64,000 nt of DNA from a virus (taxonomy: Duplodnaviria > Heunggongvirae > Uroviricota > Caudoviricetes). Positions 4,101 to 50,900 of the stretch are shown here, piece after piece. Position 1 is the stretch's first letter. Each line of letters starts with the position of its first letter. The DNA lies in IMG/VR virus record IMGVR_UViG_3300014204_000008, positions 34,837 to 98,836 of that record, one strand, 5' to 3'. A program made the position numbers and the translations under genes. Under the pieces are notes generated by a model. That model saw only the letters and a list, made by a program, of their open reading frames with translations, made no database searches and was not told the origin of the DNA.

Positions 4101-6308
4101 ATGCCAGAAATCATTACTCGCAAACCATTCCCATTCAAGATCGGATCAGATCCTGAATTCTCAGTTCTCTTCAGAGAAAAGAAAATGCACGCACGAGAAA
4201 CATTCCAAGCCCTTCTCGGTGCATACGACAAACGTTACGCAGAAGGTCACATTGGCGTTGATGGATGTGCAGCCACAGGAGAACTTCGACCAAATGCCTC
4301 CAATACCGCAGACGAACACGCAAACAATATCGAAGGGATTTTCAAGAAAAGCTACAAAAATCTCAAAGGATTCAATTTCACAACCATCTCGCTCTACGCT
4401 CCAATCGGAGGTCATATCCATCTCGATCTCACGCCAAAACACAAAGAACTTCCCGTTGAAAACTTCATTCTTCCATTTCTTCTTCCAATTTGGTTGTCCG
4501 AAGATACCATCTCAAGAGAAATTCGAAAGAAAACTGGTTATGGAAAACTTTGGAATTTCAAAAGAGGTGAAGCTTCAACAGAAGTCGCAACACTTGAAGT
4601 ACGAGGTCCATCCGCAGAATGGATGACCACAAAACAATCAACCATCGCCGTTCTTGGTTATCTCGGAACCATCTGGGCCGAAATTGCAAAACGACCAGAA
4701 TTATTCCAACAAGAACTTCGAGAAATCTGCGGAACAACTTCAACCGACGGAGCACAGATCGCTTCAATGCTTACAAGTGACAACAATCTTTACATCGGAA
4801 CTGTCATGCGGAAGCTTCGATCAATTCTTCCTACCTTCGAATTCTATCAAGAATACAAGAAAGAAATTGATCTCATCTTGAATCCAAAGAAATTCAAGAG
4901 ACTCAAAACATTCTACGAATTTTCCGTCTTCCAAGGATGGGACATTGAAAAGAAAGAAAAAAACATTAATCAGAAAAAATTCATCCAAACAGAATCAGAC
5001 GATGCCGTTAACCTAGACGCCATCCAAGAAATTCTTGACAATGACGATGAAAATTCTGAAAAGATCAATTCTTTCTTCTCACATCAATCCATTGCCCACA
5101 ATACAGATCGAAACGTAAAGCTTCTTGACGAAGAACTCTCCAAACGAATCTTCGCAAATGGAATGAAGCCAGAACAAGAATTATTCTTATTCGGTTTACG
5201 AAAAGGTATTGATTCCCCTCTCGTCTTCAATTCGAAACAAGAACTCTTCGAAGGTGCTGAACTCATCAAAACAGAACAAGATCTAGAAACCTTCAAGAAA
5301 ACAGCAGACAAAATGATTGATAAAGCAAAAAAAGCTTGGAAATCATCCATCTACACAATCAAACCATTAGAAGGAATTGTCCTTCGAAAAGCTGATCCTA
5401 TTTTCATTGGTATTCCATTCGAATGGAGAAGGCTACCAATCCAAATTGATCGTTTCTTAAAACTTGCCTGGAAATATCTTCAACCAAAAATCGAAAATCC
5501 AGTCAAAGTAAACAAAGAAACATTAAAAAAAGATCAAGGCGGAGCATTCACTAAAGCTCTTGAGAAACAACAATCACCTCTCAATAGTTCCGCCATCGAC
5601 TCAAGTTCTCAAGGGCTAATCTATGCTAGACGTGGAATTCAAGAATACGAAGAGGAATTGGAAGCAAGACAACGTAGAGACTTAGAAATCCAACTAGCAA
5701 AAGAATTCCCCAATCTTTCTCCACTAGATTCTTGGTTCGAACACATCAAAAAAACTTGTGAACCAATAAAAATACTGATTCCAAGTCCAGGAATCAACGA
5801 AGAAAGACTCCATTTCTTAAATGGATACAAATTGGAAGAACCATACCAAAACGATACAGCCGTAATCATCATCAACCACGATGATCAACTCGCCCGTATC
5901 CAAATCCTAAAGGAGAAATTCAAAGAAAGATGGCCATCACTCGATCTTACAACACGAGAATTAGCATACCTACCAAGAAAAACAATCGAAGTAAGAACCG
6001 TGGGTGATGATGAATTCAATGAATACTTCAAAAAATTCATCACACCATCAGCTCTTTTCCAAGGAAGTGCATTGCACCAAAGAAACAACAAAAACCCTTA
6101 TCAAATTTTCTTCACTCAAAAACATTCTCAAATAATGAGAGAGATTGATAAGGAAGAATTAGAAGAAATCAATAAGGAAATCACAATAGGCAAAAAACTC
6201 CTTGGAACAATTGAAACGCCAACAACACCAACAGAATCAGAACCAGAGTCAGATGACATGATCATTCCTATTCTCAATCATGTCCACGAAGACCAAGTCT
6301 TCTTTTAA
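4101..6308 (+). CDS. large protein (735 aa) with an N-terminal amidoligase-like region
   Basis: The long ORF sits immediately upstream of a class-II glutamine amidotransferase gene. N-terminal features (IGSDPEFSV, GHIGVDGCAATGELRP, GGHIHLDL) recall the Amidoligase_2/GCS2-like fold, which is reported in conserved neighbourhoods with GAT-II. Assigned from memory only. The C-terminal two thirds are helical and acidic. Confidence 0.6.
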   Translation: MPEIITRKPFPFKIGSDPEFSVLFREKKMHARETFQALLGAYDKRYAEGHIGVDGCAATGELRPNASNTADEHANNIEGIFKKSYKNLKGFNFTTISLYAPIGGHIHLDLTPKHKELPVENFILPFLLPIWLSEDTISREIRKKTGYGKLWNFKRGEASTEVATLEVRGPSAEWMTTKQSTIAVLGYLGTIWAEIAKRPELFQQELREICGTTSTDGAQIASMLTSDNNLYIGTVMRKLRSILPTFEFYQEYKKEIDLILNPKKFKRLKTFYEFSVFQGWDIEKKEKNINQKKFIQTESDDAVNLDAIQEILDNDDENSEKINSFFSHQSIAHNTDRNVKLLDEELSKRIFANGMKPEQELFLFGLRKGIDSPLVFNSKQELFEGAELIKTEQDLETFKKTADKMIDKAKKAWKSSIYTIKPLEGIVLRKADPIFIGIPFEWRRLPIQIDRFLKLAWKYLQPKIENPVKVNKETLKKDQGGAFTKALEKQQSPLNSSAIDSSSQGLIYARRGIQEYEEELEARQRRDLEIQLAKEFPNLSPLDSWFEHIKKTCEPIKILIPSPGINEERLHFLNGYKLEEPYQNDTAVIIINHDDQLARIQILKEKFKERWPSLDLTTRELAYLPRKTIEVRTVGDDEFNEYFKKFITPSALFQGSALHQRNNKNPYQIFFTQKHSQIMREIDKEELEEINKEITIGKKLLGTIETPTTPTESEPESDDMIIPILNHVHEDQVFF

Positions 6309-6353
6309 AAAAGACTGAACTCATTCACACAAACTAACCTTAAACATACACCT

Positions 6354-7592
6354 ATGTGTGGAATCATTGCAGCCTTTTCGACAAAAGAAGATGAGAATCC
6401 GATCAATCAAGAAATCATTGATCAATTCGAAGATCAACAATCGAGAGGCACAAAAGGATTTGGAATCATCTCAATCAACCCAGAAAAGCAAATCCAAGTT
6501 TTCAAAGCCTGCGAACCATACAAATTCCTCCTTGATCTCTACTTCCAAAAATCGAAGATGCTTATCGTCCATCACAGGACACCAACATCTTCTCCAAACT
6601 GGATAGAACAAGCACATCCAATTTTCGTCTCAAATCCTGCATTAAACTTTGACTATTATGTCATCCATAATGGCATGATCTCAAATGCAGAATTTCTCCG
6701 TGAAAAGCATGAGAAGGAATACAACTTCCAATACTCAACACTATTCACTGACGAAAAAGATCTAGAAAAATTCAATGACTCAGAATCCTTAGCCATTGAA
6801 TTAGCCATCTACATAGAAGGAATCCAGAAATCAGCACGATTCGGAGGTTCAGCAGCTTTTATCGCATTACAAATCAACAAGAAAACAGGTACAGCTTCAA
6901 AAGTCTTCTACGGAAGAAATGATCGAAATCCATTAAAAATAGCTGCTACTCGTAGATACCGATTCCTCTCAAGCGAAGGAAAAGGTAATGATGTAAAACC
7001 TGGCGTTCTCTACTCCTTCAAACCAGAAGGAGAGATGAAAATCAACAATAGACCACTCATCATTACTACAGAATACAAACCCTATCCTCAATACAATCAA
7101 CCAGTAAATCACACACCTGGTTATAAGCAAGTTGAAGGATTTAAGGTAAAAGAAACAACCAAGCAATCAAACTTCATTAAACACGAAGAAGACGACTTCG
7201 TAAAGAAAACAAAAACAGAAGCCCTCGAAGGATACGATGATTCAAACAATCAAGACACCTTCGACGAATCAGATACATTCTCTGGACCTCATGCACAAGA
7301 ATTTGAAGATATCTTCGATACAACACAAACAAATATCGAAGATCTTATCCTAGAATTCTTTGAAGCAGCACAACGCGTTGAAACATCAGCCCTAGCTGAT
7401 CCAAGAGAAACTGCCGATAAAATGCACGTAATTCTCAAAGAAGCGTCAAGAAAGATCCAAGAGATCCACGATATTGACACGCTCGATCTAATCAACGATG
7501 CCAGATACGAAGACGAACGGGAATTACCATTCGAAGATGAAAAGGTAGAAAAAACAATTCTCACACCAACCATCTTCAGAAAATCCTCCTAA
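6354..7592 (+). CDS. class-II (Ntn) glutamine amidotransferase-like protein
   Basis: Starts MCGIIAAF with the nucleophile Cys at position 2 after Met, then ...HHRTPTSS... and NGMI. The C-terminal half is acidic with no obvious synthetase domain. Confidence 0.65.
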   Translation: MCGIIAAFSTKEDENPINQEIIDQFEDQQSRGTKGFGIISINPEKQIQVFKACEPYKFLLDLYFQKSKMLIVHHRTPTSSPNWIEQAHPIFVSNPALNFDYYVIHNGMISNAEFLREKHEKEYNFQYSTLFTDEKDLEKFNDSESLAIELAIYIEGIQKSARFGGSAAFIALQINKKTGTASKVFYGRNDRNPLKIAATRRYRFLSSEGKGNDVKPGVLYSFKPEGEMKINNRPLIITTEYKPYPQYNQPVNHTPGYKQVEGFKVKETTKQSNFIKHEEDDFVKKTKTEALEGYDDSNNQDTFDESDTFSGPHAQEFEDIFDTTQTNIEDLILEFFEAAQRVETSALADPRETADKMHVILKEASRKIQEIHDIDTLDLINDARYEDERELPFEDEKVEKTILTPTIFRKSS

Positions 7593-13365: not shown

Positions 13366-14592
13366 TTATCCCTTCACGACGCCAAGTGGAGTAAGTTCAA
13401 CGATGATGTCGACAAGATCTTCCTGATTCTTCATGACGACATCAATATCTTTATAAGAACCTGGAGCTTCATCCAAATCCTCTACTCCTCGAATAGCATG
13501 AAGAACGCCCATATCGTCTAACTTCTTCTTCTCCTCTTCGAGGTTAAGTGTCCGCTGAGCTTCTCTGCGACCCATCTTCCGTCCTGCACCATGCGAACAA
13601 GAGTCAAAACTGTCCTTACAGCCCTTTCCACGTACAATATATGACTTAGTACCTTGAGAGCCTGGAATGATCCCTACGGTGCCATTTTGGGCCAATGTAG
13701 CCCCTTTGCGATGGACAAGGACATCCTTTCCGAAGTGATGCTCTAATACAGCATAGTTATGAGCGATATCTATGAATTCAGGAAACAGATCATCCGTACC
13801 ATCTTCATGAACGTGAGATCCTTTACGAAGATCCGATCCGCTTACATCAAAGATATCCTTGATACGATCCATCATCAGCTTACGATTCGCTTTTGCGAAC
13901 TCTACACAGTATTGCATCTCTTTCATGTAATCTTTCCCCTGTTGAGAATCGAGAGGAAGGAAAGCAAGATCCCATTCTTTTGGAACTGCTGAATGCCATT
14001 CCGCATTTAGATTTTTTGCAACTCCATTGTAGTAATCGGCCACTTTCTTCCCTAGATTTCGAGATCCTGAATGGATCATGATCCATATAAAGCCATCAGA
14101 TCCTTTTTGGATCTCTATAAAGTGATTTCCACCACCAAGTGTTCCGAGCTGCTTTAAAGCAGATTTATATTCCGATGAAACGATGTGGAGACCGGAAAAG
14201 TAACATAAATTCCCATTCTCTATCGCAACGCCATGAGGCATCAAAAGCTGATCCTGATCCTGTTCATGATGATTGTGTCCAAGAGGTATTTGTTCACGAA
14301 TCCTCCCCATTATCATCTTCAGCTGATCAATGGAAATTTCTGTTAAGCATGTTCGTACAGCTGTAACGCCACATCCAATATCTGATCCAACTGCATAAGG
14401 AATTACAACATTTTCTGTTGCCAAAACTCCACCGATTGGCATTCCGAATCCCTGATGAGAATCCGGCATGATCGCTACGTGGTGAAAGGCAAACGGAAGA
14501 TTAGCTAGATTCTTAGCCTGTTCTAAAGCCCCATCCTCGATCTCATCGAGCCACATCTTGATGGGTATATTCTCCGTTGAAATGATTTTCAT
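13366..14592 (-). CDS. rtcB: RNA-splicing ligase RtcB
   Basis: DSHQGFGMPIGGV, GGGNHFIEIQ, HSGSRNLG, NYAVLEHHF, SHGAGRKMGR and the full-length metal and GTP-binding residues of the RtcB family. Confidence 0.85.
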   Translation of the reverse strand: MKIISTENIPIKMWLDEIEDGALEQAKNLANLPFAFHHVAIMPDSHQGFGMPIGGVLATENVVIPYAVGSDIGCGVTAVRTCLTEISIDQLKMIMGRIREQIPLGHNHHEQDQDQLLMPHGVAIENGNLCYFSGLHIVSSEYKSALKQLGTLGGGNHFIEIQKGSDGFIWIMIHSGSRNLGKKVADYYNGVAKNLNAEWHSAVPKEWDLAFLPLDSQQGKDYMKEMQYCVEFAKANRKLMMDRIKDIFDVSGSDLRKGSHVHEDGTDDLFPEFIDIAHNYAVLEHHFGKDVLVHRKGATLAQNGTVGIIPGSQGTKSYIVRGKGCKDSFDSCSHGAGRKMGRREAQRTLNLEEEKKKLDDMGVLHAIRGVEDLDEAPGSYKDIDVVMKNQEDLVDIIVELTPLGVVKG

Positions 14593-20390: not shown

Positions 20391-21350
20391 CTATTTCTTA
20401 AGCATCCTCTCTCGAATTCGATAGAATTGCGATTTCTTAATACCGAGATGACCGCAGATCTTCGTAACATCACGAATACCTTTAGAGATGAGATCTTTAA
20501 TACCAGATACACGCTTCTTAAAGATATCGTCATTTCGTTCCTTCATCGTTTTATAAGAAGGAGCAGGCAATGATGCTTGAGTAACAGCATTCATAATTCC
20601 TCCAAAATGTTTTTGATATGTCCCATAAGAAGGAATAAGCCCTGAAACACAATCTGAAATTGATGGGATTCGATTATGCTGACGATAGAAATTCCTAATA
20701 GCATCCAACAACTGATCATCTGTATATCTCCAAGACGACTTCAATGAATGACCTCCAACCTTATTTGGTTCGAAACCGGCTGCTCGTACAGCATTTGTCC
20801 ATGACCCAAACACGCGAACAAACGTGCCTTGCGAAGAATTAAAATCTCTACTCGAAGGCACTCTACCATGTTCGCGATGAAACTCCTTAATTCGGTTTAA
20901 AAGTTGAAGATAACAGGTACCCTTTACATTCTTTGTCTCAAACCGCGTTTCCCAATTCTTCTTCATCTCTTCAGAAATCTTTCTCTTCGTTGCTTCTGTA
21001 TGCGGTGTTGAATGAGACCGAAGATTCGCAAGACATGCATCTTGATGAACATGCACAAGCTTCGCTCGCTCCTGATCAGAAATAAGAATCGTCTTCTTAT
21101 TAAGGCCGACAAGATCTCGATACTGAGCCGTATTCATATTATGCTCTCGATGTATATGATTCGAGAGATTCGGATACCACTCACCACAAAAATGACACTG
21201 AAGATCTCCAGTCTCTTCATCAGCTAATAAGACACCACGAAAACCATAGCCTCTATCGAAAGGCATAAATGGTTCTTTATAGTGGTACAGAGCTACGCTA
21301 CCACTTGGCGCATCTGGATATTCCATGAACTGTTCTCTAACTCTTTTCAT
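20391..21350 (-). CDS. homing-endonuclease-like protein (CHFC ... HxxxH zinc finger, two HNH-associated repeats, C-terminal HTH)
   Basis: Repeats HGRVPSSRDF ... FGSWTNAVRAAGF and HNRIPSISD ... FGGIMNAVTQASL. C-terminal ICGHLGIKKSQFYRIRER. Confidence 0.5.
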   Translation of the reverse strand: MKRVREQFMEYPDAPSGSVALYHYKEPFMPFDRGYGFRGVLLADEETGDLQCHFCGEWYPNLSNHIHREHNMNTAQYRDLVGLNKKTILISDQERAKLVHVHQDACLANLRSHSTPHTEATKRKISEEMKKNWETRFETKNVKGTCYLQLLNRIKEFHREHGRVPSSRDFNSSQGTFVRVFGSWTNAVRAAGFEPNKVGGHSLKSSWRYTDDQLLDAIRNFYRQHNRIPSISDCVSGLIPSYGTYQKHFGGIMNAVTQASLPAPSYKTMKERNDDIFKKRVSGIKDLISKGIRDVTKICGHLGIKKSQFYRIRERMLKK

Positions 21351-22384: not shown

Positions 22385-24604
22385 CTATTTATCAACAGAT
22401 ACCATCTTCCGTTCTATTGCAGAAAGAACAAGATTTGCGAACGTTGATTCAACAGCTTCTTCGGTACCATCGACGAGCTTCGAGATAACTCGATCTTTCG
22501 ATGAGATAATATTTTTCATAACTTCATCAATCGTTCCTTTTGAAAAAAATTGGTAGACGGAAACTGGATTCTTCTGACCGATACGATGGCATCGTGCTTC
22601 AGCCTGAGAAGCATCAGATGGACACCAGCTAAAATCTAGAAACAATACGATATGTGCATTCGTAAGTGTAATACCTGTATTCGCTGATTTAATCCCACCA
22701 AGAAAGATCTTCTTCTCAGGATCGTTTTGGAATGCTTTTACAATATCTCTACGCTCCTCATCAGCCGTTTCACCTAAGATCGTAACCGCTGAAGATCCAA
22801 AGTATTCACCTAATTGATGGATAGGATCAACAAACGATGAGAAAACGACAATCTTTTCTCCATTTTCGATAACGTCTTCAATAAATGAGATCGCAGATTT
22901 TAACTTTCCAGCAGATGCAATCTGCCGAAGAACGTTGAGCTTCACAAGCTGTTTTGCTTGGAGTGATCGCAACGCCTCTTTCGACGTTTTCTTTTTCTTC
23001 TCAACGAGAAACTTAAAAAGATCTTCTTCGGCCTGGACGTAATCAGCTTTAGCCTCTTCTGATAATTCTACGGGAACAGAGATAAGAGGAAGTTTTTCTG
23101 GAAGGTCGTCTAGAACATCTTCCTTCTTTCGACGTAAGAAGTATGGAGCAATTCTTTTACGCAATTCATCAATATTCGTAGAACCAGAAGAATCCCAACC
23201 GTACATGCCCATATGTCCTCCACAGAACTTTTTAGAAAACGACATCCAGCTTCCCCATTCTTTCGGATGAAGGATGTTCAATGGGACGAACAGCTCCGAT
23301 GGTCTATTCATGACAGGCGTCCCAGACAGAAAGAGAACATGTTCTGATGAACGTGCTAAAAACATCGCTGCTTTTGTACGCCTAGCTGCGAGTGATTTTA
23401 TCATGTGACTTTCATCAAATATGATTGCATCCCATCGAAGAACGGAAATAGGTTCAACGAACTTTCGAAGAAGATCATAGTTCACGATAAAAACATTCTT
23501 TTTCGGATCTCGAAAAACTTTTGATGGCGTCTTGGAATCAATGACAACTGGTTTCAATCTCGTCCACTTCTCAACTTCATCGTACCAGGAATATTTAACC
23601 GTAGCCGGACAAACAACAAGAACACGAGAGAAATTCTCGTGAGCAACGTATGCGAGAGATTGGAGACTCTTACCACAATTATGAACAATAAACCCATTCG
23701 CAATGAAATTCCTATCAGGATCATCCATCACAACATCATAGACATGATGCTTTCCAACACCATCAATAGAGACAATCTCACGAGCAGAACATGCTTCATC
23801 AGAATCTGGAGTAATAGATGATTCCATGAAGACTTCTTCGCCAATAGTCAATGAACTTGCTTCAACCCACTCAACATCATTTCCAAATCTCGCGACAAGA
23901 ACCTTATGATCTGGCGTGAGGATGATGCTCTTCTTCTCTTTCGCAACCTGGACCGTAATACGAATAGCATCTTTCTTCCCCTTGTCTAGAACGTCCATAA
24001 CCTGATTCAAATGAAATGGAAGAACCTTCCCTTCGAGACATGACCGAAGAAAAACCTTCTTTCCATGCCAAGCATCTTTAGAGAATTTCTCATAAAACGA
24101 AGAAAGCTTCATCTCTTCTTTTTTTGCATTCCCAATGAAAACAGAAACGATCGCATCTCCAGAGATACAACCCATTTCGTCCGCTAGGATTGCTCGCCCA
24201 TTCGCATTCAAAAGAAACTCAGTTCCAACGCGTTGATACCCATAGAGTTTCTCACCATTTTTGACATTATTTGGGACAAAATCCGTTTCTTTCTTTTCTT
24301 TCAGATACATAGCCTGATCCTTTCGAACTTCAGCCTCTTGTTGCATCAAATGATTGAGTTTCCATTTATTTCTTACCGTATCCGAAACACTTGTCGTTGG
24401 AAACTTATTCACGATAAGGGCGACAATCTCATACTGAGAAAATCTCCATACCTTGCTCGTTGCATCAAAAGAGAATTCCTTCCAACCATACTTCTCCTTG
24501 ATGAGCCTACAAAAATCCAGAAATACAACTGAAAAAGGGAACTCAAACACTAATTCGTGATAAGCCGTCTTTTCATATCGTATTTCTGGATTTAAGACCG
24601 GCAT
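22385..24604 (-). CDS. SNF2-family helicase interrupted by a mini-intein
   Basis: LYGYQ, ADEMG / CGKSLQ (motif I split), DESH motif II, LSGTP motif III, QAEARCHRIGQ motif VI. Confidence 0.85.
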   Translation of the reverse strand: MPVLNPEIRYEKTAYHELVFEFPFSVVFLDFCRLIKEKYGWKEFSFDATSKVWRFSQYEIVALIVNKFPTTSVSDTVRNKWKLNHLMQQEAEVRKDQAMYLKEKKETDFVPNNVKNGEKLYGYQRVGTEFLLNANGRAILADEMGCISGDAIVSVFIGNAKKEEMKLSSFYEKFSKDAWHGKKVFLRSCLEGKVLPFHLNQVMDVLDKGKKDAIRITVQVAKEKKSIILTPDHKVLVARFGNDVEWVEASSLTIGEEVFMESSITPDSDEACSAREIVSIDGVGKHHVYDVVMDDPDRNFIANGFIVHNCGKSLQSLAYVAHENFSRVLVVCPATVKYSWYDEVEKWTRLKPVVIDSKTPSKVFRDPKKNVFIVNYDLLRKFVEPISVLRWDAIIFDESHMIKSLAARRTKAAMFLARSSEHVLFLSGTPVMNRPSELFVPLNILHPKEWGSWMSFSKKFCGGHMGMYGWDSSGSTNIDELRKRIAPYFLRRKKEDVLDDLPEKLPLISVPVELSEEAKADYVQAEEDLFKFLVEKKKKTSKEALRSLQAKQLVKLNVLRQIASAGKLKSAISFIEDVIENGEKIVVFSSFVDPIHQLGEYFGSSAVTILGETADEERRDIVKAFQNDPEKKIFLGGIKSANTGITLTNAHIVLFLDFSWCPSDASQAEARCHRIGQKNPVSVYQFFSKGTIDEVMKNIISSKDRVISKLVDGTEEAVESTFANLVLSAIERKMVSVDK
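23678..24169 (-). mobile_element. mini-intein (about 164 aa) inside the Walker A motif of the SNF2 helicase
   Basis: CISGDAIV at the N-splice, TPDH block B, VYDVVMDDPDRNFIANGFIVHN at the C-splice followed by +1 Cys. Removal restores DEMGCGKSLQ. Too short to hold a homing endonuclease. Confidence 0.7.
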
Positions 24605-30041: not shown

Positions 30042-30212
30042 ATGCCTACCATAAAAATTGGAGATAAGAAACCTACCTGTTCGATAGAAGGTTGTTCTAG
30101 GACATGTCGAAATAAGGGTTTAACTCCTAGCGGAAAAAGAAAATACATGAACATTTGCCCAACGCATTTTTTGAAGAAAAAAAGATTAAAGAATAAGGAA
30201 CAATTAGTATGA
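30042..30212 (+). CDS. small zinc-binding protein (56 aa, not in ORF track)
   Basis: CSIEGCSRTC ... CPTHF. Stop overlaps the recA start (ATGA). Confidence 0.35.
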   Translation: MPTIKIGDKKPTCSIEGCSRTCRNKGLTPSGKRKYMNICPTHFLKKKRLKNKEQLV

Positions 30213-31291
30213 TCAAAAAACAAGCAGCAGAAGGAGCAAAGACGCTTTCAGAAATTCTAAAAGAAGCGAGAAAGAAGTATGGAGAAGGGACGCTCGCTTT
30301 TGCCGATGACTTTGAAAGTCTTAATCTCGAAGTCATCCCTACGAATTGCTATTCGCTTGATGATGTCTTCGGCGTAGGCGGACTTCCACGTGGTCGCATC
30401 ATCGAGATCTTCGGTCAACCGTCAGGAGGGAAAACAGCAATGTGCCTCTACCTCATCGCTCAGGCTCAGAAGGAAGGAAAGACAGCGGCATTTATTGATG
30501 CCGAATATTCTTATTCAAGCGATTATGCACAGAAGCTCGGTGTAGATACGAAAGAGCTTGTCTATATGCGACCAGAGACGGGTGAGGATGTCTTTGACGT
30601 TGTAGAGGATCTTGTGAAGTCAGGAGAGGTCGCGATCATTATCGTCGATTCAACTGCTGCTCTCATTCCAGCTTCTGAAGCAGAGGGGGAGATTTCTGAT
30701 TCGACAATCGCTCTTCAAGCCAGACTTCTCGGCAAAGGTCTTCGGCGGATGATTCCGTTCGTCTCCAAGACGAATACGACTGTCATATTCATCTCGCAGA
30801 CACGAGATCGTATTGGCGGATACGGACCAACGAAAGAATCTACCGGTGGGAATGCTCTCAAGTTCTTTGCTTCTGTAAGACTTGAAGTGAATAAATTGAA
30901 AGGCATTGAATCAGATGGAGCTTTGATTGGTAACCGTCTTAAAATCAAGGCTGTGAAAAATAAAGTAGCACCTCCGTTCAGAGAAGCAGAAATCGAACTT
31001 TACTTTGAGAGAGGTATTGATCAGATTCTCGATCTTATTGATTATGCAGAACGTTATGAAATCATCGAAAAAGCAGGCCACACGTACAGCTTCGAAGGCG
31101 AAAAAATCGGGGTTGGTAAAGAAAATGCCTGCAAAGAAGTCTCAGAAAACCAAGATCTCCAGAAAAAAATTAGAACCAAAGTCGAAGCGTTTAGATCTAA
31201 AAAAGACCCATCGGAAAATAAAGGAGAAAGCAAAGAAGGAAAGCGTTCCAGAGCAACCGATCAAGATCAAAAACGCGAAGACGCGTCTTGA
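30209..31291 (+). CDS. recA: RecA recombinase
   Basis: GRIIEIFGQPSGGKTA Walker A, AAFIDAEYSY, IIIVDS, FISQTRDRIGGYGPTKESTGGNALKFFASVRLEV. Confidence 0.85.
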   Translation: MIKKQAAEGAKTLSEILKEARKKYGEGTLAFADDFESLNLEVIPTNCYSLDDVFGVGGLPRGRIIEIFGQPSGGKTAMCLYLIAQAQKEGKTAAFIDAEYSYSSDYAQKLGVDTKELVYMRPETGEDVFDVVEDLVKSGEVAIIIVDSTAALIPASEAEGEISDSTIALQARLLGKGLRRMIPFVSKTNTTVIFISQTRDRIGGYGPTKESTGGNALKFFASVRLEVNKLKGIESDGALIGNRLKIKAVKNKVAPPFREAEIELYFERGIDQILDLIDYAERYEIIEKAGHTYSFEGEKIGVGKENACKEVSENQDLQKKIRTKVEAFRSKKDPSENKGESKEGKRSRATDQDQKREDAS

Positions 31292-40351: not shown

Positions 40352-40428
40352 TCTGACGTAGTTCAGCTGGATAGAACAGAGGACTTCTAAGCCTTTAGAC
40401 ATCGGTTCGAACCCGATCGTCAGAACCA
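40352..40428 (+). tRNA. tRNA-Arg (anticodon UCU), CCA encoded
   Basis: 7-bp acceptor TCTGACG/CGTCAGA, D-arm GTTC-AGCTGGATA-GAAC, loop CTTCTAA, T-arm ATCGG-TTCGAAC-CCGAT, ACCA end. Confidence 0.6.
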
Positions 40429-40502
40429 TGGAGTTTATGTCAGTTATTCTCCTATAAAAATATTGATACGGGTTTGGCAGGAACGTATAAAAACTGTCCC
40501 AT

Positions 40503-40576
40503 CGCGGAATGGAGAAATGGCATCTCGTCAGTTTCATAAGCTGAAGTTTCCAGTTCAAATCTGGATTCCGCATCCA
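40503..40576 (+). tRNA. tRNA-Met (anticodon CAU), C1:A72 mismatch, CCA encoded
   Basis: D-arm GAGA-AATGGCA-TCTC, anticodon arm TCAGT-TTCATAA-GCTGA, T-arm TCCAG-TTCAAAT-CTGGA. Could instead be an Ile(LAU) or initiator-type tRNA. Confidence 0.6.
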
Positions 40577-40577
40577 G

Positions 40578-40665
40578 GCAAGCGTATACTGCTAAGGAGG
40601 CAGCGCAGACTGTAAATCTGTTGTCTTAAATGACTCGCTCGGATCGTTCCCGAGAGCTTGCACCA
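40578..40665 (+). tRNA. tRNA-Tyr (anticodon GUA), class II with long variable arm, CCA encoded
   Basis: Anticodon arm GCAGA-CTGTAAA-TCTGT, variable hairpin, T-arm CTCGG-ATCGTTC-CCGAG. Four nt between acceptor and D-stem is unusual. Confidence 0.45.
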
Positions 40666-40666
40666 A

Positions 40667-41024
40667 GGGTCTGATCATATTTCGATAGGTTGCTCATTGA
40701 AAAATTGCAGGACAAGCTGTAGTAACTTGTTAAAAGGCTACGAAATTGTAATTGCCAAAGCTATTGAAAGTCTGAAGTCGTTCTACACTTCGGTGTTTCG
40801 AACCCCTTCATTCGTTGCGTCATTCGTCTAACGAACTGATGCCCGATCATCATGATTTGTTTGTAGGTCATGAATGATCGTCACTTATACAAACTGGTGG
40901 AGAACACAAATCTCACGCTCTGAATGTAGGTACATAGCAGCTCTTGCTTTAAGGAGCTAATCCTGTGAATGAAATTTTTCATATATCAGCCTATACACGG
41001 GAGAATCACCCGTCAGATCCACCA
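40667..41024 (+). ncRNA. ssrA: tmRNA (ssrA), about 358 nt
   Basis: 5' GGGTCTGATCATATTTCGATAGG aligns with the E. coli tmRNA 5' end GGGGCUGAUUCUGGAUUCGACGGG. 3' ACGGGAGAATCACCCGTCAGATCCACCA aligns with GCGGGUUCAACUCCCGCCAGCUCCACCA. Acceptor GGGTCTG/CAGATCC carries the G3:U70 alanine identity pair. A-rich tract, TAA, TT, then GCC is a resume-codon context like E. coli UAG-UC-GCA. Confidence 0.65.
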
Positions 41025-41027
41025 GAG

Positions 41028-41102
41028 AGGAATGTAGCTCAACGGTAGAGCAATTCGCTTATATCGAATAGGTCGTGGGATCGTCACCCACCATTCCTAC
41101 CA
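41028..41102 (+). tRNA. tRNA-Ile (anticodon UAU), CCA encoded
   Basis: Acceptor AGGAATG/CATTCCT, D-arm GCTC-AACGGTA-GAGC, anticodon arm ATTCG-CTTATAT-CGAAT, T-arm GTGGG-ATCGTCA-CCCAC. Confidence 0.55.
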
Positions 41103-41103
41103 T

Positions 41104-41191
41104 CGGCCTGTGATGAAATGGTATACATGGGAGGCTTAGACCCTCTTGCCCTTTATTGGGTTTGCAAGTTCGAATCTTGCCAGACCGACCA
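41104..41191 (+). tRNA. tRNA-Leu (anticodon UAG), class II, CCA encoded
   Basis: Acceptor CGGCCTG/CAGACCG (one mismatch), anticodon arm GGAGG-CTTAGAC-CCTCT, long variable arm, T-arm GCAAG-TTCGAAT-CTTGC. Confidence 0.55.
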
Positions 41192-44867: not shown

Positions 44868-44905
44868 AGAACTTATCCCTTGGCTTAATTGCTGAGGGAT
44901 TTGTT
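44868..44905 (+). terminator. intrinsic terminator (ATCCCT ... AGGGAT then TTGTTTTTT)
   Basis: Hairpin plus T-run about 60 nt downstream of the promoter, convergent with the end of the giant - strand gene. Confidence 0.45.
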
Positions 44906-47900
44906 TTTTATGAACGAGTTGATGGCTCCGAAATACTTCTCAACGATTGGTTCGATCTGAGTGATAATACCCATGTAGCGATAAACATCCTCTTCGCGCT
45001 TTGCCCCTTCATAGCTTGAATAGTTCCTATTCATATCAGGTCTCGTGACAAGGTGGTATCCAATACGAAGGAGCTGATCTTCTGAGAGACCACTTCCATT
45101 TATCATATAGTCTTCAAAGACTTTATCCATGATCTTTTCAGATTCTCCAGCAAGTTTACCGGTTTCCATATTGTAGTCTCTACTGAACTCTTTCTCATCA
45201 AAAACTTCACCCTTCTCTTGGGCGGCTCTTCGCGCCTTATCCATGACAACGGAACGCGCTTTACGTCGCGCTTGGCGAGAAGCGTTGATGTTCGCGGCCA
45301 TCTTTACAATGTGAGATTCAGGCGTGCCAGAAGTAATCTTAAAGAAGTCCTCACCTTTTTCTTCAATAAGTGATTTCTTTACTTCCTGTGCCGCAAAAAG
45401 GTCTGCGGCGTTCTGGGCCTTGATATCTGTACGCTCAATTGGTTTTAAACCTCTGAACTGATCCAGTATCTCAAAGAATGGCGTCAACTTCCCATCGGCT
45501 GCATTGATTCGATCATTGAGGTTAAAGATTTTCTCTAAAGAATACACGAGATCAGATGTCGATTCCAGGGTATTCTTTTCTTCGTCGACGAGTTGAAATG
45601 CCGTCTGGAAGTCTCGAAGCTCTTTAGAAATCTTCAGGATCTCCTTCTTCGTCGTAACTCCAAAAAGATGTGAGATGAGAACTTGGTTCGCATCCTGAAG
45701 ACCTGTTTCCTTCAATCGACGTTCAAAGTCTCCATAGGTAACACCATCAACGGTCTCCTGTGCCAATTGACCAACGAAACGCGGATCGTTCTTCATATTC
45801 GAAGCAACAGGAAGATTCGAATCTCTTACTTGAGAGAGAATGCGACCTATTCCTTGTGCCTGACCAACGCCTTTCCCAGAATTCACTGCGGCATTTACCG
45901 TATAGCGAACACCTTGATCAGTCATTTCGATTGGCTTCTCTCCAGCTCCTTCTCCGAATTTCGTAAGAGGATCAAGAACAATATCTTTATCACTCTTACG
46001 CTGTGTTTCAATATAGTCAGCGTATTCCTCAGGAATGCCTCTCCCCTGGAGTTCATGCCCCTTCCCATAGATAGGGAAGACTTCATAAGCATCTCCATCA
46101 AAGTCGAACTCTTTTCGGACATATCCATCATATGCAGAAGTGATAATCGTGCCTTTTTTCACCTTCATTCCAAAGTCCTCAGCAATAACAACGTCTGCTT
46201 TTGCAAGAGCCGTAAGTCTCGTGATAGGTTGGCGAATGGAAACAACACTCGTTGGTTTTCCGATGCGCTCCCAGTCTGCACGAGAAAGCATGATTTCATT
46301 TGGCTTCAGATAGAGGTTCTTTGCCTGTTCCTTAAGGAACGTTTTTCCATAATCACTTAGACGGTTTGCCTTATCAGCGTCTTCAAGAACATCTACAATT
46401 CTATAGATATCTGCTTGATCGTCTAAGAGGTATCGAGCGTCTTTCTCTGAAAGAACGCTGTCACCAAATAACTCATTGAAATGAGTTCGTAACGTTCCTA
46501 CTTTGTCCTTTACTTCTTTTGACTTTGCGAATGTCACGAGTTCTGCGACATGAGCGAAGTGACCAAGGTCTTCTTTCTTTGGATGATTTGCAACTTCAGA
46601 AATCTTCAAAGCCCCTTTTGAAGCAAGATCTGGTTGAACGTAATTGTAGGTAGATTCTCCTAAGAATCTTCCTGACATGATCTTTGATTGGAAAGCTTTT
46701 GCGATATTCTCTTCAAGTTTCTTTTCAATAAACATGTCTGGCGTATCCGAGCGACTGAGGAGCTGATTCATCTTCTCCCAATCTGCACTATCAATTTCTC
46801 CAACAAGGTCTATACCAAATTTCTCTTTGAATTTCGTATTAGCCTCTCGAATAACCTCACGTATCGGTGTCCCGTTTTTCTTTGCTTCTCGAATCGAGGA
46901 GAAGAGATCTGTGTAATCCTTGATTGGTTCTGAGAAGCGTTCCGTGAAAGCTTTATTTACAACAGGATCATTTGAAGCTCGTGAGTAGATAGAAGCAGCA
47001 GCCTTTGGCTTTGTAACCGCTTTCTTTGGGACAACCTTTGCGTGCCAAGATGAAGAAGGCGTCGTGCCTCCAACAATCCCATCTCCCATATCTTCAAGAA
47101 GTCCTAACCCAATTTTAACATTCTCTGAAGAGCCAACGATCGAGAACTTATCAAGAGGTTTCCCAATACGTCGTTCGAAAGAACGTTGCATGTGCTCAGG
47201 CATTGGATAGAATTGACCTTTGATGATTGCTGTTCCACTTCCAGTGTTCCAGACAAGGTTAGATTTGATATATCCAAGAGATGGGTCAGAATTCATTGCC
47301 TTCAAGAGAAGTTTAAATCCTTCTTCGGGAATGAAGTTCGCTCCATCCATAATATCTTTTCCATTAATCCCATCAAGAACCTTTGTACGCTTCACACTTT
47401 CCGTTGGGAGTTGGAGCATGTTCTCATCGACAAGCCCAAGTTCTCCCATTTTCTTTCCTGGAAAAACGAAGAGTGGCATCTGAACTTCATTCCCCTTTTC
47501 ATCTCGAAGATCGAGTTTTGGTTCAGAAAAGTTGAGAATGCTTGTACGCTTGTTGAGCTTACCGAAATTCGAAGCTGTTTTCTGATCAAGACCTACGACA
47601 TTCTGATAGAAAGAAACTCTAAATCGCTCACTTGGCGTCATCTTTTCAGCACCTTCGCCCGTATACATGTTTGCAAGCTTCTCGTTGTATTTTACCAAAA
47701 TCGTATTCTTAATGTTGTTTCCAGCAATACCAATAACCACGTAACTGTCCTTTTCAGCACGTCCACTATTAACGATATCAAGAACTGCTTGATAGGCATC
47801 ATCTGATTTTGTTTCAACCAAGCCATCTGTCTCATAACGCTTCAATTCAATCTTTCCAATATCTGGATTTCTTGATGTGAAGTCTTCAATGAGTCTATCT

Positions 47901-50900
47901 GTAGGACTCTTTGATTTCATGGTTAACGTTTCAACATCTTCTTGGATTTTACCGTTCTTTACTTGGAAGGCTTCACGTGGTTTCGCATCAATAATTCTTC
48001 GAAGAAGAACTTTAAAATCATTCTTCGTAGCCTCATTTGAAAAGAGTGATGGGAGTTCAACATCGTACTTTTCAGAAAAGTCTTTTGTACTCGTTTCCAT
48101 TGATTCGATAAGCTCGTCCATTGCTTTATGAGAATCTCCGCCATTCTTCTCTCGAAGCTGCTGTAATCTCTTTTGGATATTCTCTCTGGAAAAACTATTC
48201 TTTCTTTCTTCAAGAGCAGATATCGTTTTCCCGAAATGGGACAACTGTTCACGCTGGTCCTCTGTAAGAGTTCTATTCCCGTTCTCAGAAAAGAACTTGT
48301 TACGCAAGTCATTACGCTTTGCAATGATCTCTTTCTGCTTAGAAGAGAAAACAATGGTAGAGAGTTCTAATTTTCCATTCTTAAGTGTACGAGCATCGCT
48401 TGGAGATGTAAGTGATACGTCTTGCGTATCAAATGGTCTATTCGTTGTAAGCTCATCAGAAAGAGCAATCCTTTCCTCTACGGTAGGATTTCGTACAAGT
48501 TCAACGCCAAGAGATTCTGCTGCTTTCTTTTCAACAGGGGTCTGAACAAAAGATTCTTCATTTCGTGTGACAATCTCTGCTTCACCCTTTTCAGGAACGT
48601 ATTTAACATTCTTTCCTTCCTTGATTGCGGAAAGCTGATCTCGTACCTCCAAAGGTAAAGATTCAGGGATGTTTTCCTTCGTTTTCGGTTCTATCTGCTG
48701 TCTAACTGGTTCTTGTACCTTAGGTGGTTCCTCTATAGGAACTATGCGTGGCTCCGCGACAGTTTGCTTAACTTGAGGCTCTGATACCATCTGTGAGGCT
48801 CTAGGAGCCTCTATGACAGGTTCTTGTGGCAAAATTGGCGTCTGTACCTCTTGTTTAATTAGAAGGCTCTCAGTGGCCATTTTAGGCGTTTCAGGTGGTA
48901 TTGTGGTATCTGATACTATTTCAGGAACAGGAAGGCTCTCAGGGGCCATTTTGGCCTCTACAGGAGCTTCTACTGGGACATCTGAAGGCTTTTGAATAGC
49001 TGTCTCTTTAACAGTTCTCTTAGACCCAAGAAGTGGAAGATCGAGAAAATGACCAAGAAGAGGGCTTTGAACGAATTCAGAGGTACGAAGAATACCGCTT
49101 ACAATTCTTGCCTGATCAGAAATTGCTTGAATGTTTGCCGTTCCAGAAGAGATGCCATCTTCGAGTACCGAAAGAAGATCACGGAGAGAGACTGAATCTC
49201 CCTTAGCGATGATCTCTCCAGCTCTTTCTGGTGACAGAATTTCTCCGTAACGTTTTGAGATCTTTGAGACAAGATCATCAGCACTCTTACTTCCAGCAGC
49301 TTCAGAGAAGAATGAGAAAACTTCTTCACCGTCTTTTATCCTTTGGATGAATGCTTCAGAATATTCTTCTGGGTTATTAAAAACCTTATCGAGCATCTCA
49401 TATGAAGGCTCGATGTCCATCTTCTGTTTTAATGTATCTACGAAACGTTTTGAATCCTCAGGTCCAGTAAGAGCACGAGCACGTGCCATAAGTTCCATCG
49501 GTGAATGAACCTCTGAACCAGACTTTGTTCCTTCGAATAGTTGCTGAGTCTTCGAAATGCCATCTTCGGTAATAGCAATTTTAAACCAACGTTTTCCTTC
49601 CTCTGCACCCATTTCTCGAATATCTCCAACCATGGCACCAACGTTTTGGTCATCCATCCATCTTGAAAGAGTATCCTTGTCTAAGTTGAGCTGTTCTCCT
49701 TGATAGTTCTTCCAGCGATCATCTTTTGTTCCTAAGGAACCAACAAGTTCTTCCGTTTTCTCATTCATTCGATCGAGGACTTTCTTTGATGGCATCATCC
49801 CAACCTTCACCCAAGAAACAGTTCCATCGACTTCCTTATGTGGAACATAAACAGAAATGACTGAATCTGGGTTAGATTCAATATCTTTTGTTGCACGTTC
49901 TTCAGGTGTGTACTGGCTTCGACGTAGAGTTTCTTTTGTTCCCTGACCAGGAGATCTTATTAAGAGTGCTCTTGTTCCACGATTTCCGTTTACCTTTGCG
50001 TCTTGAAGAAGTTGCCACTGGCGTTCAGTCATGCTCCATTCTCCACCAGTCGTTTGGAATACACCTGTAGGACTGTCGACTGGAACGATGGACGGATCTG
50101 CTGAACGTGTTGCCGTTGAATCAACATTTTCAAAGAAGATATTCTTTGCTTCATTTGCCGTTAAACGAAGTGACGGATCGGCAGTAGCCTGGCCATTATT
50201 TAACATTCTTTGAAGAAGAACGCTCCATGACTGGAGATCCTGTAAAAGCATCCTATCAGATTCAACAGGATTCTTCGTTGTTGATTCCAAGAATCGAAGT
50301 GATGTATCAAGTTGTCTTGTCACTAAAGACAAATCCTCTTCACTCCAAATAGGGTTTCCATTTTTATCTACATTCTTTTCTGCCGTTTCTTTCCATTTAT
50401 TCGTCCCTTCAATCCGCAATTTAACCAAAGCTTCTGAAGAAAGATCCTTCCCAGCGTAATATTCAGTTGGTTTAAAGTTTTCGAATTTACCAGGATTTGG
50501 GAACATCTCTGGATTAACAGCATGAAGATTTACGGCAGCAGCGAACTTCATTCGGTCATCAAGTCTAACAAGAAGTTGATTCTGGAGAGATGCTTGTTTC
50601 TCTGCGTAAACCGTCTTCATTGCCTGTTGAACGAATGGTGATTTTTCAATAATATCACGTTCTGAAGCTGAAAACGTTGGCTTTGTTCCAGCATCAGCCA
50701 CTTTAGCTTGCTTAATATATTTTCCTACAACATCCACACCTTTTTCACGGGTTCTAATTTCTTTCGTATGTCCTAGACCATGAAGAGCTGTAAGCATCAA
50801 AGCATTCTGAAGAATGCCCATGACATCTCCTTCAGAAGATTCATCCTTCATATTGAATCCCTGCTCCATCGAAGCCAAAACAGCACCTTTGCCAAAGACC

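What the first reader, a model, noticed from the sequence alone, without database searches (positions are those of the whole stretch)
23678..24169. Mini-intein inserted in the Walker A P-loop of the SNF2 helicase
The helicase motif I reads ADEMG-[164 aa]-CGKSLQ. The insert begins with Cys, contains TPDH (block B), and ends VYDVVMDDPDRNFIANGFIVHN followed by Cys. These are all the hallmarks of a Hint-domain intein. It is too short to carry a homing endonuclease, so it is a degenerated mini-intein fixed in an essential motif.
Basis: seen in the sequence. Interest (0 to 1): 0.6.

Follow-up and report, generated by a model that had tools for sequence, protein, structure and literature searches.

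The report
Mini-intein splitting a phage helicase P-loop
A 164-residue self-splicing protein element (a mini-intein that has lost its homing endonuclease) interrupts the ATP-binding loop of a phage SNF2 helicase; the call is correct, but this is an ordinary new example of a well-known kind of selfish element.

Summary
On the minus strand, window 24169..23678 encodes 164 aa (Cys1 ... His-Asn164) followed by Cys+1. It lies inside a 739-aa SNF2 helicase ORF (22385..24604) and splits motif I as ADEMG|intein|CGKS. Pfam Intein_splicing and TIGR01445 both score above their curated cut-offs. An AlphaFold model (pLDDT 91.7) matches solved mini-inteins; the 50 best PDB matches listed are all inteins, Hedgehog or BIL domains. 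Removing the insert gives a 575-aa protein, within the 536-602 aa range typical of intein-free homologues, and it aligns without a gap across motif I of the Sulfolobus SWI2/SNF2 core. Of the 120 best homologues, 29 (the window's protein included) carry an intein at this exact site. The long ones (250-321 aa) hold an in-frame HNH endonuclease where the window's intein has only a 14-residue linker. Several short ones keep HNH fragments, and their closest relatives are HNH-bearing. The mini-intein therefore most likely arose by endonuclease loss. All class-1 catalytic residues are intact, so it probably still splices, but this was not tested. Inteins in SNF2 helicases, in P-loops and in phages are all documented. 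Verdict: a new member of a known kind, of low-to-moderate interest.

The parts
22385..24604 (-). Precursor ORF, 739 aa: SNF2-family helicase (SNF2-rel_dom + Helicase_C) with an intein in motif I
   Evidence: ORF; PF00176 E 1.9e-33, PF00271 E 8.3e-15; phrog_62 DNA helicase, E 6e-107
24170..24604 (-). N-extein, residues 1-145, ending ...ILADEMG (first half of Walker A; Gly at -1)
   Evidence: the alignment with 120 homologues puts the break after the conserved D-[ED]-M-G
23678..24169 (-). Class-1 mini-intein, 164 aa (Cys1 ... His163-Asn164), HINT fold, no endonuclease domain
   Evidence: AlphaFold2 model pLDDT 91.7 / pTM 0.87; Foldseek top hits are Ssp DnaB, Mtu RecA and Npu DnaB mini-inteins, TM 0.74-0.89
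24167..24169 (-). Block A nucleophile, Cys1
   Evidence: Invariant in 29/29 allelic inteins
23906..23917 (-). Block B TPDH (Thr85, His88)
   Evidence: Thr and His are invariant in 29/29 allelic inteins
23780..23821 (-). Linker SSITPDSDEACSAR (intein residues 117-130), at the position where allelic inteins carry a zinc-ribbon + HNH endonuclease; probably what is left after endonuclease loss
   Evidence: Alignment of 29 allelic inteins; lowest model confidence falls here (pLDDT block means 83 and 74); HNH_3 confirmed in relatives
23678..23743 (-). Blocks F and G: VYDVVMDDPDRNFIANGFIVHN (Asp145, His163, Asn164)
   Evidence: Asp145 and Asn164 invariant, His163 in 28/29; TIGR01443 intein_Cterm 20.2 bits against a cut-off of 15.6 on the whole protein
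23675..23677 (-). Cys+1, first residue of the C-extein and nucleophile for trans-thioesterification; becomes the x of G-x-G-K-S after splicing
   Evidence: the other 28 intein-bearing alleles have Cys (26) or Ser (2) here, whereas intein-free homologues mostly have Leu, Thr, Ser, Val or Ile
22385..23677 (-). C-extein, residues 310-739 plus stop: CGKS (rest of Walker A), DESH (23405..23416), SGTP (23315..23326), QAEARCHRIGQ motif VI (22574..22606)
   Evidence: the spliced sequence aligns gaplessly with the Sulfolobus SWI2/SNF2 core 1z63 (E 3.5e-45)

Best explanation
The region is a class-1 mini-intein inside Walker A (motif I) of a phage SNF2-family helicase, between Gly145 and Cys310 of the precursor. 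The 739-aa precursor cannot bind ATP, because its P-loop is split by a 164-residue HINT domain. The inferred canonical pathway runs as follows. Cys1 makes an N-to-S acyl shift at the Gly(-1)-Cys1 bond, assisted by block B Thr85/His88. Cys+1 attacks that thioester to form the branched intermediate. Asn164, assisted by His163 and block F Asp145, cyclises to release the intein. An S-to-N shift then leaves a 575-aa helicase with the contiguous P-loop ADEMGCGKS. The element most likely descends from an HNH-endonuclease-bearing intein that homed into this site in a group of roughly 90-100 kb uncultivated phages. It then lost the endonuclease, leaving a 14-residue linker. Without an endonuclease it can no longer home. 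It persists because only exact deletion would restore the gene, and because splicing keeps its cost low. Shown here: the anatomy, the fold, the restoration of the P-loop on removal, the site-specific allelic family, and the endonuclease deletion series. Inferred: splicing activity, the direction of endonuclease loss for this particular copy, and its immobility.
For: Intein identity:
- PF14890 and TIGR01445 score above their curated cut-offs.
- PDB sequence hits are inteins.
- The model is confident (pLDDT 91.7), and its 50 best listed PDB matches are all inteins, Hedgehog or BIL HINT domains.

Extein restoration:
- 739 - 164 = 575 aa. Intein-free homologues with no other large insert or N-terminal extension are 536-602 aa and read G-x-G-K-[TS] with no insert.
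- The spliced sequence aligns without a gap over motif I of 1z63.
- Motifs II, III and VI are present.

Catalytic competence:
- Cys1, Thr85, His88, Asp145 and Asn164 are invariant in 29 allelic inteins whose mean column identity is about 34% in the 19-sequence alignment. His163 is present in 28/29 and the +1 nucleophile in 29/29.

Endonuclease loss:
- Allelic inteins of 250-321 aa carry a CxxC zinc ribbon plus HNH_3 (49 bits in P0010) at the window intein's linker.
- P0086 keeps a sub-threshold HNH fragment. P0097, P0104 and P0012 keep zinc-ribbon or HNH pieces.
- Most mini-inteins are closest to HNH-bearing ones: P0104-P0108 82%, P0002-P0010 66%, P0086-P0081 62%.
- No alternative-frame or antisense ORF longer than 60 aa exists in the intein DNA.

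Long residence:
- Intein GC is 0.400 against 0.405 for the extein and 0.403 for the window. Codon usage lies within the extein's range.
- It is the most divergent allele, at 42% identity to its nearest relative.

Phage context.
Against: Splicing was not tested, and a fully conserved active site does not guarantee activity in the native extein context. No close relative is available (at most 48% extein identity). Neither the time of endonuclease loss nor population-level fixation can therefore be addressed. The alternative that this lineage never had an endonuclease is not formally excluded for this copy. The linker shows no statistically recognisable HNH or zinc-ribbon remnant.
Confidence: 0.9

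Rival explanations
1. It is a native SNF2 insertion domain, or another non-splicing Hint-like module, that stays in the mature helicase.
For: SNF2 ATPases often carry lineage-specific insertions. The Pfam score is only just above the cut-off (36.6 against 35.8).
Against: The insert splits G|xGK[ST], which must be contiguous to bind the nucleotide phosphates. Intein-free homologues have zero residues at this point. The insert has every splice-junction residue plus a +1 Cys. The predicted fold is that of solved inteins. Allelic copies carry a homing endonuclease, which marks a mobile element rather than a host domain.
Confidence: 0.01
2. It is a dead intein. The element no longer splices, so the helicase gene is effectively a pseudogene, or yields only cleavage products.
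For: Inactive inteins are known, for example the Arthrobacter Arth_1007 intein (title of PMC3196547, listed). No experiment was done here. The allele is highly divergent.
Against: The ORF is intact across 739 codons. All catalytic residues are conserved. All extein helicase motifs are intact, which would not be expected if the gene had been non-functional for a long time.
Confidence: 0.06
3. It is a mini-intein that is still mobile, mobilised in trans by a free-standing homing-endonuclease-like protein encoded nearby ('collaborative homing'), rather than an immobile relic.
For: A 319-aa ORF about 1 kb downstream (20391..21350, minus strand) has two 'homing endonuclease associated' HNH_repeat units and a MucR/Ros-type zinc finger. 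A related phage has a weak free-standing HNH_3 gene about 3.5 kb from its helicase gene.
Against: No nuclease domain was detected in the 319-aa ORF, in Pfam or in PDB sequences. Nothing links it to the P-loop target site. The intein's strong divergence and fully host-like base composition argue against recent mobility.
Confidence: 0.03

Closest known systems
Class-1 mini-inteins in P-loops of replication and recombination ATPases (DnaB site b, MCM site a, RFC-S site a; solved examples Ssp DnaB and Npu DnaB mini-inteins, Mtu RecA intein splicing domain)
   Same: It has a HINT fold with TM 0.74-0.89 to these structures. It shares the Cys1 / TxxH / HN / +1 nucleophile chemistry. [quoted passage not shown] (PMC4760082).
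   Different: The host protein is different (an SF2 SNF2 helicase). The exact break is G|xGK[ST], before the variable residue, whereas the 'classic' P-loop site lies between Lys and Thr/Ser (PMC5050341). Sequence identity to solved inteins is only 11-23%.
Deinococcus radiodurans Snf2 intein, and the 'HepA/SNF2' inteins counted among the top 15 bacterial intein hosts
   Same: Both are inteins in an SNF2-family helicase. Splicing of the Dra Snf2 intein was shown experimentally (Southworth and Perler 2002, as cited in PMC11219805). Fifteen HepA/SNF2 inteins are listed in PMC4760082. Two mycobacteriophage helicases 'related to HepA' carry inteins (PMC5050341).
   Different: Dra Snf2 is a class-3 intein (title of Brace et al. 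2010, cited in PMC5222942), and the actinophage helicase inteins are also reported as class 3. The window's intein is class 1, with Cys1. I could not retrieve the Dra insertion site, so whether the two share a site is unknown.
In-frame HNH-endonuclease inteins of phages and their decayed mini-intein derivatives
   Same: The allelic relatives of this intein carry in-frame HNH_3 endonucleases. This non-canonical architecture has been reported mostly from phages, together with decaying endonucleases and mini-inteins (bioRxiv 10.1101/2025.01.02.630785).
   Different: The window's copy has no HNH left. No full-length homologue of this intein exists in 50,697 GenBank phage records. The family was seen here only in metagenomic phage-like contigs.

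Membership tests
Intein (HINT-domain protein-splicing element), class 1 | Sequence match to curated intein splicing-domain models above their thresholds | tested here: met
   PF14890 36.6 bits against 35.8. TIGR01445 25.1 against 24.5 on the insert. TIGR01443 20.2 against 15.6 on the whole protein.
Intein (HINT-domain protein-splicing element), class 1 | HINT (Hedgehog/intein) fold | tested here: met
   AlphaFold2 model pLDDT 91.7, pTM 0.87. Foldseek against PDB: the 50 best listed hits are all inteins, Hedgehog or BIL domains, with best E 3.9e-10. This is a predicted structure, not a solved one.
Intein (HINT-domain protein-splicing element), class 1 | Class-1 catalytic residues: Cys/Ser1 (block A), TxxH (block B), block F Asp, penultimate His and terminal Asn (block G), Cys/Ser/Thr at +1 | tested here: met
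   Cys1, Thr85-Pro-Asp-His88, Asp145, His163-Asn164 and Cys+1 are all present and conserved across 29 alleles.
Intein (HINT-domain protein-splicing element), class 1 | In-frame insertion in a host protein whose homologues lack it, and whose conserved sequence is restored by precise removal | tested here: met
   Intein-free homologues have no residues at the site. The spliced sequence aligns gaplessly over motif I of 1z63.
Intein (HINT-domain protein-splicing element), class 1 | Actual protein splicing (excision plus extein ligation) | not testable with these tools
   This needs expression and SDS-PAGE or mass spectrometry.
Mini-intein (no homing endonuclease) | No endonuclease domain between the N- and C-terminal splicing lobes, in frame or in another frame or strand | tested here: met
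   164 aa in total with a 14-aa linker. No HNH or LAGLIDADG Pfam hit at E <= 1. No alternative ORF longer than 60 aa over the intein DNA.
Mini-intein derived by endonuclease loss ('degenerated') | Closest relatives at the same insertion site carry an endonuclease at the position of the linker | tested here: met
   Its nearest alleles (P0010, P0081, P0004; 41-42% identity) are HNH-bearing. A deletion series is seen in other alleles. Direction for this copy is inferred, because no rooted phylogeny was made.
SNF2-family (SF2) helicase/translocase as host protein | SNF2-related N-lobe plus Helicase_C lobe with motifs I, II (DExH), III and VI | tested here: met
   PF00176 E 1.9e-33 and PF00271 E 8.3e-15. 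GCGKS, DESH, SGTP and QAEARCHRIGQ are located. Best PDB match is the Sulfolobus SWI2/SNF2 core, E 3.5e-45.

The most novel reading that the evidence does not exclude
The endonuclease-less intein may be retained because it acts as a post-translational switch. Its catalytic Cys1 and Cys+1, and possibly the internal Cys44 and Cys127, would make splicing sensitive to redox state or zinc. The phage SNF2 helicase would then be activated only under particular intracellular conditions during infection, as proposed for the mycobacterial DnaB P-loop intein. A second point concerns the family this copy belongs to. The allelic inteins at G|CGK[ST] form a natural series of full HNH, decaying HNH and mini forms in uncultivated phages of about 90-100 kb. 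That series may be an uncatalogued intein allele family in which the whole homing cycle could be studied.
Probability: 0.1. Interest if true: 0.5.

Novelty: new member of a known kind. Interest (0 to 1): 0.25.

Why it matters
For annotation, the gene should be called an intein-containing SNF2 helicase with a 575-aa mature product, not a 739-aa helicase with an unusual domain. For biology, it adds one more case to the established rule that inteins concentrate in the P-loops of replication and recombination ATPases. The comparison set is more useful than the single copy. Within one phage helicase family the same site holds empty alleles, HNH-bearing inteins, partly deleted endonucleases and several independently minimised mini-inteins. 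At least four other sites in the same gene are also invaded. That gives a compact natural dataset for the gain, decay and loss stages of the homing cycle. It is also a source of small, divergent class-1 mini-inteins (144-195 aa) with a Gly(-1)/Cys(+1) junction that could be screened for protein engineering.

Tried and rejected
- **Intein-only database search.** The search of the 5.8-billion-protein database returned nothing at E <= 1e-3, because the query is too short and divergent for a database of that size. Allelic inteins were recovered through the full-length helicase search instead.
- **Possible shared intein in GenBank phages.** Several tblastn hits started inside the intein's C-terminal part. 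I checked RM378 and THSA-485A and both are intein-free, so the alignments had simply run on. LR756508.1 does carry an intein, but at a different site (GK|T) and with a LAGLIDADG-type insert.
- **Intein against the 50,697 GenBank phage records.** This found only generic block F/G matches to inteins in ThyX and DnaE genes.
- **Foreign composition as a sign of recent transfer.** Intein GC, GC3 and codon usage are indistinguishable from the extein and the window.
- **Hidden out-of-frame or antisense endonuclease.** None was found.
- **Second intein of this family in the window.** A profile built from alignment A1 hit only this gene. The RtcB and RecA genes, both frequent intein hosts, are uninterrupted.
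- **Insertion site of the Deinococcus Snf2 intein.** The papers are not held in the library, and the supplement of PMC4760082 is not held either.
- **Nuclease in the neighbouring HNH_repeat protein.** No nuclease domain was found.

Full report
**1. Observation**

The only long ORF across the flagged interval is on the minus strand, 22385..24604, 739 aa. The reverse complement of 23678..24169 translates to 164 residues with no stop: CISGDAIV...ILTPDHKV...HHVYDVVMDDPDRNFIANGFIVHN. The plus-strand reading is broken by stops.

In the precursor the insert occupies residues 146-309. It is flanked by ...ILADEMG on the N side and CGKSLQ... on the C side. The only missing detail was the strand.

**2. 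What it is**

The host protein is an SNF2-family helicase. It matches SNF2-rel_dom (E 1.9e-33), Helicase_C (E 8.3e-15) and PHROG 62 'DNA helicase' (E 6e-107).

The evidence that the insert is an intein is as follows:
- Scanned alone, it matches Pfam Intein_splicing at 36.6 bits (curated cut-off 35.8, E 4.9e-9).
- It matches NCBIfam intein_Nterm at 25.1 bits (cut-off 24.5). The C-terminal model passes its cut-off on the whole protein.
- Its best matches among solved-structure sequences are inteins: Spl DnaX mini-intein (E 4.6e-6), PolB16, KlbA and Pho RadA.
- An AlphaFold2 model built on an alignment of 19 allelic inteins is confident (mean pLDDT 91.7, pTM 0.87, nearly all beta strand).
- A Foldseek search of the PDB with that model returned 65 matches at E <= 0.001. 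The 50 best listed are all inteins, Hedgehog autoprocessing domains or BIL domains. They are led by the Ssp DnaB, Mtu RecA and Npu DnaB mini-inteins, with TM-scores of 0.74-0.89.

**3.

Removing residues 146-309 leaves 575 aa.

I aligned the 120 best homologues from the 5.8-billion-protein search. The intein-free ones without other large inserts or N-terminal extensions are 536-602 aa. They read D-[ED/x]-x-G-[L/T/S/V/I/C]-G-K-[T/S] with no residue at the break.

The conceptually spliced protein aligns without a gap through motif I of the Sulfolobus solfataricus SWI2/SNF2 ATPase core (lademgCGKSlqslA against LADDMGLGKTLQTIA; 1z63, E 3.5e-45). It retains DESH, SGTP and QAEARCHRIGQ.

The insert is therefore not a native SNF2 domain. 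It interrupts the nucleotide-binding loop and must be removed for the enzyme to work.

**4. An allelic family, and the fate of the endonuclease**

Of the 120 homologues, 29 (the window's protein included) carry an insert at this exact position, 152-321 aa long. All 29 start with Cys and end with Asn; 28 have the terminal His-Asn pair and one has Lys-Asn. All are followed by a +1 nucleophile: Cys in 27 and Ser in 2.

Cys1, Thr85, His88, Asp145 and Asn164 are invariant and His163 is present in 28/29. Mean column identity is only about 34% in the 19-sequence alignment.

The 19 long alleles (250-321 aa) contain an extra module between the two splicing lobes. The typical module is a CxxC...CxxC zinc ribbon followed by an HNH motif. 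I confirmed it as Pfam HNH_3 at 49.1 bits in P0010 and 24.0 bits in P0004 (precomputed).

In the window's intein that position holds only the 14-residue linker SSITPDSDEACSAR (window 23780..23821). It is the least confident part of the model.

Other short alleles are caught part-way through the loss:
- P0086 keeps a sub-threshold HNH fragment (16 bits).
- P0097, P0104 and P0012 keep zinc-ribbon or HNH pieces.

Most mini-inteins are most similar, over the splicing lobes, to HNH-bearing alleles rather than to each other: P0104-P0108 82%, P0002-P0010 66%, P0086-P0081 62%, P0012-P0015 54%. This implies several independent endonuclease losses.

The window's copy is closest to HNH-bearing alleles too, but only at 41-42%. 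It is the most divergent member.

Its GC (0.400) and GC3 match the extein (0.405) and the window (0.403). Its codon usage lies within the spread of extein segments. No alternative-frame or antisense ORF longer than 60 aa lies over it, so a hidden endonuclease of the kind described in actinophages is excluded.

The splicing machinery itself shows no sign of decay. 'Fixed' cannot be assessed from one sequence.

**5. Context**

The window is from an uncultivated tailed phage. The exact protein occurs on contigs of 98.9 and 52.5 kb.

The window encodes:
- RtcB, RecA, an SbcCD-like pair, a DnaD-like HTH_36 initiator with an IstB-like loader, and a phiEco32-type COOH-NH2 ligase.
- An SU10-type adaptor, tail-fibre-like and M23/SLT proteins, and four tRNAs.

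Related helicases sit on phage-like contigs of about 83-101 kb. One contig with an HNH-intein allele and one with an empty allele were inspected; the former also carries the HTH_36 initiator-like gene upstream of the helicase.

IMG/VR viral contigs add further alleles at the same site. L007-L011 are mini-inteins of 144-171 aa, and L015, L043, L044 and L057 continue into zinc-ribbon/HNH sequence. No full-length relative exists among 50,697 GenBank phage records.

**6. Mechanism**

The anatomy is that of a canonical class-1 intein, so the standard four-step pathway is the best-supported mechanism:
1. N-S acyl shift at Gly(-1)-Cys1.
2. Trans-thioesterification to Cys+1.
3. Asn164 cyclisation.
4. 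S-N shift.

The product is a 575-aa helicase with the P-loop G-C-G-K-S. The variable P-loop position tolerates Cys: two intein-free homologues (P0045, P0112) naturally read GCGKT. Splicing itself was not tested and cannot be tested with these tools.

**7. Comparison with what is known**

- Inteins cluster in P-loops of replication and recombination ATPases. SNF2/HepA is among the 15 most frequent bacterial intein hosts (PMC4760082).
- A Deinococcus Snf2 intein was shown to splice, but it is class 3.
- Mycobacteriophage HepA-like helicases carry inteins, and the 'classic' P-loop site is between Lys and Thr (PMC5050341).
- In-frame HNH inteins, decaying endonucleases and mini-inteins are described in phages.

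The present element is a new and divergent class-1 member, at a break point one turn earlier in the P-loop (G|xGK). It is a new member of a known kind, not a new mechanism.

**8. Verdict**

Novelty is low, at the level of a new member of a known kind. Interest is about 0.25. Most of the value lies in the comparative series, which spans empty, HNH-bearing, decaying and mini alleles plus several other invaded sites in the same helicase family.

Noticed in passing
Homologues P0058, P0007, P0008, P0054, P0027, P0082, P0040, P0083, P0095; locus L004 639..3464 (LR756508.1): The same phage SNF2 helicase family is invaded at five or more other points besides G|CGK. These are GK|T of the same P-loop (P0058, where Pfam reports a LAGLIDADG domain, and a 484-kb uncultured phage), DE|C in Walker B, just after DExH, and two sites further downstream. 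Some proteins carry two inteins (1163-1257 aa).
   Followed up: partly
Homologues P0045 and P0112: These are intein-free helicases whose P-loop reads GCGKT, with the Cys that intein-bearing alleles need at +1. They may be footprints of precise intein loss, or alleles pre-adapted for invasion.
   Followed up: no
window 20391..21350 (-): A 319-aa ORF about 1 kb downstream of the helicase gene has a MucR/Ros-type zinc finger (CHFC...HIHREH) and two 'homing endonuclease associated' HNH_repeat units. No nuclease domain and no PDB relative were detected. It may be a decayed free-standing homing endonuclease or a DNA-binding regulator.
   Followed up: partly
window 44885..52729 (-) and 52701..54974, 56030..58402, 58423..59886 (-): A 2614-aa ORF and three neighbouring large ORFs (757, 790 and 487 aa) have no Pfam hits at E <= 0.001 and no PHROG hits at E <= 1e-5. 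They lie beside an M23/SLT lysin-like protein, an SU10-type adaptor and a tail-fibre-like protein. They are presumably giant virion or ejected proteins of unknown type.
   Followed up: partly
window 40352..41191 (+): A cluster of four tRNA genes: Arg-TCT, Met-CAT, Ile-TAT and Leu-TAG.
   Followed up: no
window 4101..7592 (+) and 13366..14592 (-): A phiEco32-type COOH-NH2 ligase (735 aa) lies next to a weak glutamine-amidotransferase-like ORF. A complete, uninterrupted RtcB RNA ligase is also present. RtcB and the RecA at 30209..31291 are frequent intein hosts elsewhere, but both are intein-free here.
   Followed up: partly
Homologue P0013: An allelic 186-aa intein ends ...ITVKN followed by Ser+1, with Lys in place of the penultimate His. 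It is the only one of the 29 alleles that departs from the block G consensus.
   Followed up: no
Homologues P0038 and P0083: Helicases of this phage family are deposited under Candidatus Dojkabacteria (on a 92.6-kb contig) and Candidatus Roizmanbacteria MAGs. They could be phage contigs binned into CPR genomes, or a hint at the host range.
   Followed up: no
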